From assembly GCF_013315695.1 (NCBI RefSeq), contig NZ_CP054353.1: DNA of 64,000 bases. One strand, written 5' to 3'. The translations under genes and the position numbers were made by a program. Of the stretch, positions 26,762-27,150 are shown in pieces (position 1 is the stretch's first letter; each line of letters opens with the position of its first letter). Below the pieces are notes generated by a model. That model was not told the DNA's origin and made no database searches. It saw nothing but the letters and a program-made list of their open reading frames with translations. The stretch is from Escherichia coli. Its GTDB lineage: Bacteria > Pseudomonadota > Gammaproteobacteria > Enterobacterales > Enterobacteriaceae.

Positions 26762-26854
26762 GCGGTTTGCCAGCCTGACTCTTCAACGCAGGGAAGATGC
26801 GGCAAACGGCAAACCTGCATACCAGCCAGCCTATATCCGGTATGCACAGGCCAA

Positions 26855-27121
26855 TCATGAAAGAGGAGAGGCTTTATGTTCTGGAACCCTGAAGTAATAA
26901 CGACGACCGGAAAATCGCTTCGCATCACTCAAATCACATTTAACATAATATACATTATGCGCACCAACATAAACCAAGGAAGAATCCAGTCGTTGGCGGT
27001 CATGATTGTCGTGCTCATTAATAACGACCAAACCCCATATTAACTGCCGCATCAAAAACGCCATGATCCGCGCGATGCCTGGGCCTCCATCTGATTCATG
27101 AAAGTGACAACGGTCTGGCAT
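26855..27121 (-). pseudogene. hipA: Probable hipA (toxin kinase) remnant
   Basis: 88 aa ORF contains ESDGGPGIARIMAFLM, which I recall as an internal HipA segment; flanks do not match HipA; sits where K-12 has hipBA. Confidence 0.4.
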
Positions 27122-27150
27122 AACGGCTGGCTAACCACTCCGGTGCATAC

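What the first reader, a model, noticed from the sequence alone, without database searches (positions are those of the whole stretch)
26762..27150. hipBA toxin-antitoxin locus collapsed to a short hipA remnant, together with the autotransporter beta-barrel
In K-12 order, hipA and hipB sit between the AraC fragment (yneL) and the autotransporter. Here only about 390 bp separate the two. The 88 aa ORF at 26855-27121 contains ESDGGPGIARIMAFLM, which I recall as an internal HipA segment, but its flanks are unrelated. No HipB-like HTH ORF is present. The autotransporter ends abruptly at 27151 with no translocator domain. One or more deletions have therefore removed hipB, most of hipA and the autotransporter C-terminus. 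Loss of the HipA kinase toxin would change the strain's persister repertoire.
Basis: partly seen in the sequence, partly recalled or inferred. Interest (0 to 1): 0.5.

Follow-up and report, generated by a model that had tools for sequence, protein, structure and literature searches.

The report
Decayed hipBA remnant beside intact dif

Summary
The window is the E. coli replication terminus. Compared with K-12 and an intact relative (strain 2014C-3075), only 145 of 1323 hipA bases remain at 27041-27185. They form three collinear islands on the minus strand: codons 322-325, 267-283 and 16-44. All catalytic parts of HipA are gone, and so are hipB and the hipBA promoter. The autotransporter has lost residues ~1176-1806, which hold its autochaperone and beta-barrel. 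Four flush deletions with 0-1 bp microhomology did this, and none abuts an IS element.

Sister genomes give the order of events. Five of 5426 complete E. coli genomes share the hipA-internal deletions. Three of them still carry an intact hipB. Only two, plus the window, have the 2.4-kb deletion that removed hipB and the barrel. So the toxin was lost first and the antitoxin later.

The 88-aa ORF is a chance chimera. Its 3' two-thirds is the native hipA-downstream spacer, which contains an exact 28-bp dif site (26938-26965). KOPS polarity and GC skew converge there.

About 11% of complete E. coli genomes lack a hipA of at least 80% length. RefSeq already marks these fragments as pseudogenes in a genome that is 100% identical over 26400-27400. 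Interest is low. Effects on persisters, or on HipA-dependent arrest after terminus breakage, are inferred and were not tested.

The parts
26507..26773 (-). AraC-family HTH fragment (yneL-like pseudogene), lacking its N-terminus
   Evidence: 84-aa ORF at 26507-26761. It aligns to K-12 yneL. RefSeq annotates it as 'helix-turn-helix domain-containing protein, incomplete' in strain MSB1_4I, which is 100% identical over 26400-27400 (L001 6108-6374 = window 26507-26773).
26938..26965 (-). dif, the 28-bp XerC/XerD chromosome-dimer resolution site. Exact match to GGTGCGCATAATGTATATTATGTTAAAT, read on the minus strand.
   Evidence: Exact match, and the only dif-like site in the window: none other with <=6 mismatches in the whole window or <=9 within 25.5-29.5 kb. 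The E. coli dif sequence is taken from PMC3025954. It is identical in all eight related loci checked. The four KOPS motifs point towards it from both sides and cumulative GC skew peaks at ~26 kb.
26966..27040 (-). Native 75-bp spacer between dif and the former hipA stop codon. Homology ends 1 bp before the end of hipA.
   Evidence: Collinear alignment to K-12 L003 up to 7853 and to L005 up to 7641. hipA occupies L003 7855-9177 and L005 7643-8965.
27041..27050 (-). Probable 10-bp hipA island, TAACTGCCGC (codons 322-325)
   Evidence: Exact 10-mer of intact hipA at L005 7992-8001 and K-12 L003 8204-8213, lying inside the deleted stretch and in collinear order. The chance of such a match is about 2e-4.
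27051..27099 (-). hipA island, codons 267-283 ((Y->H)ESDGGPGIARIMAFLM)
   Evidence: blastn aligns 27047-27099 to L003 8326-8378 at 96%. tblastn matches HipA 267-283. phmmer matches PDB HipA chains.
27100..27185 (-). hipA island, codons 16-44 (LTKLANGAHTFKYAPEWLASRYARPLSLS). It is out of frame with the previous island because the deletion between them is 668 bp.
   Evidence: blastn gives 98.8% to L003 9047-9132. tblastn E=5e-13. RefSeq marks it as a pseudogene fragment in MSB1_4I.
27186..29119 (-). Middle fragment of an ECSE_1600-family autotransporter (residues ~531-1175 of 1806). The C-terminal 631 aa, with the autochaperone and beta-barrel, are deleted.
   Evidence: blastn to K-12 yneO and to the L005 autotransporter. 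tblastn recovers residues 531-1182. Pfam scan of the intact relative's tail.
29120..30545 (+). IS4 insertion (1426 bp) splitting the autotransporter, with a 13-bp target duplication
   Evidence: 448-aa transposase ORF at 29186-30532. Annotated as IS4 in L001. L005 13261-13273 is duplicated at both ends.
30546..32147 (-). N-terminal autotransporter fragment (residues 1-534, including the ESPR signal peptide)
   Evidence: tblastn gives 99.4% over residues 1-534. RefSeq product name is 'ESPR-type extended signal peptide-containing protein'.
26855..27121 (-). The 88-aa ORF, a chance chimera and not a gene. It consists of 7 codons of out-of-frame hipA(37-44), then 17 in-frame codons (HipA 267-283), then read-through of the 10-bp island, the spacer and dif.
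   Evidence: Translations and junction map. It is not annotated in the matching RefSeq record. The hipBA promoter region is deleted, and no promoter-like site on this strand was found.

Best explanation
The interval is the scar of stepwise, non-homologous deletion of the chromosomal hipBA toxin-antitoxin operon and of the 3' third of the adjacent autotransporter gene. It lies next to dif at the replication terminus of an IS-rich E. coli lineage.

Step 1 is shared by five complete genomes and the window. Three flush deletions inside hipA (350, 116 and 668 bp in coordinates of the intact relative) removed codons 45-266, 284-321 and 326-440. The kinase was destroyed, while hipB, its promoter and hipA codons 1-44 were left in place.

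Step 2 occurred only in the window, MSB1_4I and AF3. A 2419-bp deletion removed hipA codons 1-15, hipB, the operator/promoter region and autotransporter residues ~1176-1806. This fused the autotransporter passenger fragment to the hipA scrap. IS4 separately split the autotransporter.

Nothing protein-coding in 26762-27185 is functional, and the 88-aa ORF is accidental. The functional element that was preserved is dif. It is kept exactly, with 75 bp of native sequence on the hipA side.

What is shown: the map, the junctions, the order of events and the presence of dif. What is inferred: that the remnants are silent and that dif is active. It is also inferred that the strain lacks HipA-mediated growth arrest, both in persister formation and in the arrest of cells that lose terminus DNA.
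For: - Collinear alignments to K-12, 2014C-3075 and MS 21-1 give every breakpoint.
- HipA matches are restricted to residues 16-44 and 267-283, and there is no HipB match.
- The hipA-internal junctions occur as one uninterrupted piece in 5 of 5426 genomes. The hipB/barrel junction occurs in 2 of 5426.
- hipB (WP_024195293.1) is intact in MS 21-1, AF14 and AF10 next to the same hipA scar.
- MS 21-1 is 99.9% identical to the window across the region.
- The deleted autotransporter tail carries PF18883 and PF03797, and none of it is found in the window.
- dif is exact and unique, with KOPS and GC-skew convergence.
- RefSeq annotates the same sequence as pseudogene fragments.
- Eight other hipA deletion alleles all keep hipB. 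O157:H7 lost the hipA 5' end and hipB together. This fits toxin-first decay.
Against: - No genome with only one of the three hipA-internal deletions was found. Whether these were successive events or one complex event is therefore unresolved.
- Expression of the remnants and activity of dif were not measured.
- The order of events rests on parsimony over six genomes, with no whole-genome phylogeny.
Confidence: 0.9

Rival explanations
1. The three hipA-internal deletions arose in a single complex event. One candidate is end-joining or template-switch repair of a double-strand break in the dif region, where division-associated breaks occur. On this view they are not successive neutral deletions.
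For: - All five genomes with any of these junctions have all of them, and no intermediates were seen.
- The retained islands are tiny (10, 49 and 86 bp), collinear, and joined with 0-1 bp microhomology.
- Two base substitutions cluster within 13 bp of one junction.
- Ten other hipA deletion alleles each have a single deletion.
- Breakage and degradation centred on dif is documented in the literature, though in recB mutants (PMC5638614).
Against: - The same clade shows many other independent deletions within 10 kb, so repeated hits on one dead gene are plausible.
- The sequence carries no direct mark of break repair.
- Only complete genomes were searched, so intermediates may exist among draft assemblies.
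Confidence: 0.3
2. The hipA damage is a by-product of Xer-dependent integration or excision of a dif-integrating mobile element (IMEX, such as a filamentous prophage) that has since been lost.
For: In E24377A and in strain 503025, genes typical of a rolling-circle or filamentous element (a replication initiation factor protein and small ORFs) sit immediately beside the truncated hipA. Homology to the reference resumes in the middle of dif.
Against: - The window has one exact dif and no second dif-like site.
- No such element is seen in the ORF list of 22-34 kb around dif.
- The deletion begins 75 bp from dif, not at it.
- Six other hipA deletion alleles whose annotated flanks show no such element have comparable deletions.
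Confidence: 0.05
3. The 88-aa ORF, or the autotransporter-hipA fusion ORF, is a new functional gene product.
For: Both are open reading frames of 88 and 631 aa.
Against: - The 88-aa ORF is a mosaic of out-of-frame hipA, 17 in-frame codons and intergenic DNA that includes dif.
- Its promoter region is deleted, and no promoter-like site on its strand was found.
- RefSeq does not call it as a gene.
- The 631-aa ORF has no signal peptide, because that part is cut off by IS4. It also has no barrel, so it could not be secreted.
Confidence: 0.02

Closest known systems
E. coli K-12 hipBA type II toxin-antitoxin operon (b1507/b1508; HipA Ser/Thr kinase, HipB HTH antitoxin)
   Same: Same chromosomal position, between yneL/dif and the yneO autotransporter. 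The remaining 145 bases are 96-99% identical to K-12 hipA.
   Different: Only 11% of hipA is left, in three islands in two reading frames. hipB and the promoter are absent. The regions that carry the kinase active site (from general knowledge: S150, D309, D332) all fall in deleted segments. It is a pseudogene scar and not a member of a working system.
Other natural hipA deletion alleles with orphan hipB (E24377A, O111:H2 12A/FDAARGOS_1059, FORC_042, STEC2017-197 and others) and the O157:H7 hipA-5'/hipB deletion
   Same: The same locus is inactivated by internal, non-IS deletions of 0.1-1 kb. The sister strains of the window also keep an orphan hipB.
   Different: Each of those alleles has one deletion. 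This lineage has three within hipA, followed by a fourth that removes hipB and the autotransporter barrel.
E. coli dif / XerCD-FtsK chromosome dimer resolution site
   Same: Exact 28-bp sequence in the canonical position next to hipA, with converging KOPS and GC skew.
   Different: Its hipA-side neighbourhood is reduced to 75 bp of native sequence. Relative to K-12, the ~100-kb block that contains it appears inverted between IS4 copies.
ECSE_1600-family / K-12 yneO (ydeK-ydeU) type Va autotransporter
   Same: 97-99% identical passenger sequence and the same locus. It is also a pseudogene in K-12.
   Different: Here it is split by IS4 and lacks the autochaperone and the PF03797 barrel altogether.

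Membership tests
HipBA type II toxin-antitoxin system | Full-length HipA kinase (about 440 aa, with N-terminal and C-terminal HipA domains) | tested here: not met
   Only HipA residues 16-44 and 267-283, plus a 10-bp scrap, are encoded, and in different frames.
HipBA type II toxin-antitoxin system | HipB HTH antitoxin gene immediately upstream of, and overlapping, hipA | tested here: not met
   tblastn of HipB against the whole window gives a best E of 5.8. The alignment shows hipB inside the 2419-bp deletion.
HipBA type II toxin-antitoxin system | hipBA promoter/operator region upstream of hipB | tested here: not met
   The region between hipB and the autotransporter (L005 9232-9441) lies within the deleted L005 8921-11339.
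HipBA type II toxin-antitoxin system | Descent from the hipA gene at the orthologous locus (homology and synteny) | tested here: met
   96-99% nucleotide identity of the islands, collinear with the flanking yneL/dif and the autotransporter.
dif (XerCD recombination site) | 28-bp sequence with XerC arm, 6-bp central region and XerD arm | tested here: met
   Exact match to the E. coli dif sequence quoted in PMC3025954.
dif (XerCD recombination site) | Single copy at the point where KOPS polarity and GC skew converge | tested here: met
   It is unique in the window. There are 2 KOPS on the + strand to its left and 2 on the - strand to its right, and cumulative skew peaks at 24-26 kb. Only four KOPS motifs were found, so this support is modest.
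dif (XerCD recombination site) | FtsK-dependent XerCD recombination activity | not testable with these tools
   This needs a genetic or biochemical assay.
Type Va (classical) autotransporter | C-terminal beta-barrel translocator (PF03797) | tested here: not met
   The barrel lies at residues ~1525-1784 of the intact relative. Only residues 1-1182 are found in the window.
Type Va (classical) autotransporter | N-terminal (ESPR) signal peptide contiguous with the passenger | tested here: not met
   The signal peptide fragment is present at 30546-32147 but is separated from the rest of the passenger by IS4.

The most novel reading that the evidence does not exclude
The immediate surroundings of dif are a deletion hot zone. 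hipBA, the toxin-antitoxin pair that arrests cells which lose terminus DNA, is repeatedly knocked out there by microhomology-independent deletions, with the toxin always lost first. On this reading, the unusual mosaic of 10-, 49- and 86-bp islands in this lineage is the footprint of a single error-prone repair of a division-associated break at the terminus. This would be a natural counterpart of the dif-centred breakage so far seen in laboratory recB mutants.
Probability: 0.1. Interest if true: 0.5.

Novelty: already known. Interest (0 to 1): 0.15.

Why it matters
As it stands, the result corrects annotation. The 88-aa ORF is not a gene, the strain has no chromosomal hipBA at the canonical locus, its autotransporter cannot be exported, and the interval holds dif.

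Two modest points go beyond that. First, the sister genomes give a clean natural example of toxin-first, antitoxin-second decay of a type II toxin-antitoxin system. Second, laboratory work shows that loss of the dif-adjacent hipBA locus after terminus breakage is what arrests the affected cells (PMC5638614, PMC5862497). Lineages like this one would therefore be expected to lack that arrest. About 11% of complete E. coli genomes have no hipA of at least 80% length, so neither the HipA-dependent part of persistence nor this terminus surveillance is universal in the species.

Tried and rejected
- Rfam scan of 25400-29200 at E<=1 found no RNA family.
- The promoter/terminator scan of 26400-27400 found one weak plus-strand promoter-like site at 26418-26447, which is no more than chance, and no terminators.
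- IS-mediated deletion was rejected. None of the four junctions abuts an IS end. The nearest IS elements are IS2 at 24150-25480 and IS4 at 29120-30545.
- Homologous or long-microhomology recombination was rejected. The junctions have 0-1 bp of shared sequence.
- A Xer/IMEX origin was considered after element-like genes were seen beside hipA in E24377A and 503025. The window has no second dif-like site, no such genes appear in the ORF list of 22-34 kb, and the breakpoints are not at dif.
- The 6-bp 'filler' at the first junction was first read as untemplated. It was re-read as part of a 10-bp hipA island.
- A weak HipA tblastn hit at 7306-7539 (E=0.006, 32% identity) lies in the part of the window that aligns to K-12 at and just beyond the 5' part of malX (locus L012 ends within malX), and was dismissed as spurious.
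- I did not run the large protein-database, structure-prediction or metagenome searches. Nucleotide-level synteny already settled what the region is.

Full report
**What is there**

The window is E. coli chromosome. A 1-kb query around the finding (26400-27400) matches 5425 of 5426 complete E. coli genomes, and it is 100% identical to strain MSB1_4I. K-12 has the order ydeQRST, yneL, hipA, hipB, yneO (autotransporter pseudogene), lsrK, all on one strand.

I aligned window 21000-35000 by blastn to three references: K-12 (locus L003), a relative in which every gene is intact (strain 2014C-3075, L005), and a near-identical sister strain (MS 21-1, L004). These alignments give a base-level map.

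| Window coordinates | Content |
|---|---|
| 26121-27040 | yneL-type AraC fragment and the hipA-downstream spacer; homology stops 1 bp before the end of hipA |
| 27047-27099 | hipA codons ~267-284 (51 of 53 bases identical) |
| 27100-27185 | hipA codons 16-44 (85 of 86 bases identical to K-12) |
| 27185/6-29119 | internal autotransporter sequence (residues ~531-1175 of the 1806-aa intact protein) |
| 29120-30545 | IS4, with a 13-bp target duplication |
| 30546-32458 | 5' part of the autotransporter and the sequence upstream of it |
| 32459-33226 | IS1, with a 9-bp target duplication |
| 33227 onwards | lsrK |

**Check of the observation**

- The peptide ESDGGPGIARIMAFLM in the 88-aa ORF is HipA residues 268-283. 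This is shown by phmmer against eight distinct PDB HipA sequences and by tblastn at E=1.8e-5.
- tblastn also finds HipA 16-44 (LTKLANGAHTFKYAPEWLASRYARPLSLS, E=5e-13) directly upstream at 27185-27100. The 668-bp deletion between the two islands shifts the frame. The 88-aa ORF therefore starts at an out-of-frame ATG inside that island.
- HipB has no match anywhere in the 64 kb; the best E is 5.8.
- The autotransporter protein of the intact relative is recovered only as residues 1-534 and 531-1182. A Pfam scan of its last 752 residues places a PATR repeat, the AC_1 autochaperone/pertactin region and the PF03797 beta-domain inside the missing part.
- The 631-aa ORF that 'ends abruptly at 27151' in fact crosses the deletion junction at 27185|27186. 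It terminates after about 11 codons of out-of-frame hipA DNA.

**Junctions**

Printed side by side with both references, the junctions are flush. The junction between codon 267 and codon 44 has no shared base. The junction between hipA codon 16 and the autotransporter shares one base.

Six bases at 27041-27046 looked like filler. Together with the next four they form TAACTGCCGC. This is an exact 10-mer of intact hipA (codons 322-325) that lies inside the apparently deleted stretch and in collinear order. A random 6-mer followed by CCGC would occur in that stretch with probability about 2e-4. So the 3' deletion is probably two deletions.

In coordinates of the intact relative, the losses are:

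| L005 coordinates | Size |
|---|---|
| 7642-7991 | 350 bp |
| 8002-8117 | 116 bp |
| 8167-8834 | 668 bp |
| 8921-11339 | 2419 bp |

Only 145 of 1323 hipA bases remain. No junction abuts an IS element.

The 3' two-thirds of the 88-aa ORF is the native spacer downstream of hipA. It contains an exact copy of the E. coli dif site, GGTGCGCATAATGTATATTATGTTAAAT, at 26938-26965 on the minus strand (sequence as quoted in PMC3025954).

- It is the only dif-like site in the window.
- It is identical in all eight related loci that span it.
- The four KOPS motifs (GGGNAGGG) in the window point towards it from both sides. Cumulative GC skew peaks at 24-26 kb.
- A TerC-type Ter site lies 17 kb to the right.

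So the interval sits at the replication terminus, and dif is the one element in it that is expected to work. Rfam and promoter/terminator scans found nothing else there.

**Order of events**

A 196-base query across the hipA-internal junctions is matched as one uninterrupted piece by five of 5426 complete genomes: MS 21-1, AF14, AF10, AF3 and MSB1_4I. A 100-base query across the hipA/autotransporter junction is matched in one piece only by AF3 and MSB1_4I.

MS 21-1, AF14 and AF10 carry the same hipA scar, but with hipA codons 1-44 and an intact hipB. That hipB has the same protein accession as in the intact relative. MS 21-1 is 99.9% identical to the window across the region, and it lacks the IS2, IS4 and IS1 insertions.

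By parsimony, the kinase gene was destroyed first. hipB persisted as an orphan antitoxin. A later 2.4-kb deletion then removed hipB, the promoter and the autotransporter barrel in the sub-lineage that includes the window. No genome with only a subset of the three hipA-internal deletions was found. Whether those were successive events or one complex event stays open.

**Context in the species**

K-12 hipA is matched over at least 80% of its length in 4849 of 5426 genomes, partially in 393, and not at all in 184. I mapped ten other disrupted alleles against the intact relative.

| Strain | Deleted (L005 coordinates) | hipB |
|---|---|---|
| E24377A | 7656-8704 | kept |
| 503025 | 7969-8769 | kept |
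| FDAARGOS_1059 (strain 12A, O111:H2, gave a matching hit pattern but was not mapped) | 8161-8660 | kept |
| STEC2017-197 | 8013-8769 | kept |
| 2024CK-00188 | 8091-8755 | kept |
| FORC_042 | ~7701-8638 | kept |
| EC416 | ~8673-8795 | kept |
| GPT24-02 | 8157-8412 | kept |
| O157:H7 | 8712-9326 | lost together with the hipA 5' end |

hipB was never seen to be lost alone. This is what the logic of a toxin-antitoxin pair predicts. The sample is small, and it was chosen from partial hits.

The window's lineage is unusual only in having several deletions within hipA.

**Mechanism and consequences**

These points are inferred.

- The remnants lack a promoter, a start, a continuous frame and every catalytic region, so they are inert.
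- The autotransporter has neither a contiguous signal peptide nor a barrel, so it cannot be exported.
- The literature shows that hipBA lies next to dif. When terminus DNA is degraded after breakage, loss of the labile HipB lets the long-lived HipA arrest the cell. hipA-deleted strains keep dividing instead (PMC5638614; PMC5862497). This strain should behave like the hipA-deleted laboratory strains.
The rest of the genome may encode other HipA-family kinases.

**Rival readings**

- A single complex break-repair event for the three hipA-internal deletions is plausible, at about 0.3. It would be refuted by intermediates.
- A Xer/IMEX-related origin was suggested by element-like genes (a replication initiation factor protein and small ORFs) beside the truncated hipA in E24377A and 503025, where homology resumes in mid-dif. 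The window has no second dif-like site, no such genes appear in the ORF list of 22-34 kb, and its breakpoints lie 75 bp from dif.
- A functional new ORF is very unlikely.

**Verdict**

The finding is ordinary reductive evolution. RefSeq already flags these fragments as pseudogenes in MSB1_4I. Interest is low. The added value of this second look is the dif site, the toxin-first order of loss, and the picture of recurrent hipA deletion next to dif.

Noticed in passing
window 26938-26965: An exact E. coli dif site lies inside the finding interval and inside the 88-aa ORF. KOPS polarity and GC skew converge on it, so the window spans the replication terminus.
   Followed up: yes
window 7035-21430: Window 7035-20004 matches K-12 1.700 to 1.6867 Mb (malX-uid-ydgA-manA-fumA) in inverted orientation. 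An IS4 copy (20005-21430) joins it to a 3'-truncated ydeQ. Relative to K-12 this looks like an IS4-bounded inversion of about 100 kb that carries dif, TerC and presumably TerB/tus. KOPS still converge on dif. MSB1_4I and AF3 are arranged differently to the left of this point.
   Followed up: partly
window 43998-44011: GGATGTTGTAACTA matches the Ter consensus (TerC-like), 17 kb from dif. It is the only such site in the window; 0.01 are expected by chance.
   Followed up: no
window 21431-26126: The F9-type fimbrial operon (ydeQRST) is also decayed. IS2 (24150-25480) splits the usher gene. A 2936-bp deletion with a 6-bp microhomology at 26121-26126 removes the usher 5' part, the chaperone and the major subunit, compared with strain 2014C-3075.
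   Followed up: partly
L004, L006, L007, L008 (sister genomes MS 21-1, AF14, AF10, AF3): Genomes that are >=99.9% identical to the window each carry different further deletions and IS insertions within about 10 kb of dif. In AF14 and AF10 one deletion ends 102 bp to the left of dif (window 26836), and lsrK/lsrR plus most of the autotransporter are gone. Across the clade only about 205 bp around dif is common to all members.
   Followed up: partly
L009 1-2565 (E24377A) and L015 1-2050 (strain 503025): A block with a replication-initiation-factor gene and small ORFs abuts the truncated hipA, and homology to the reference resumes in the middle of dif. It looks like a dif-integrated (IMEX or filamentous-phage-like) element. 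Both strains also have hipA deletions but keep hipB.
   Followed up: partly
L010 (O157:H7 Vac_07.1), equivalent to L005 8712-9326: O157:H7 carries a 615-bp deletion that removes hipA codons 1-85, all of hipB and the promoter in one step. It leaves a promoterless, 5'-truncated hipA.
   Followed up: partly
window 32459-33226: An IS1 with a 9-bp target duplication is inserted between the autotransporter upstream region and lsrK. It is absent from MS 21-1.
   Followed up: no
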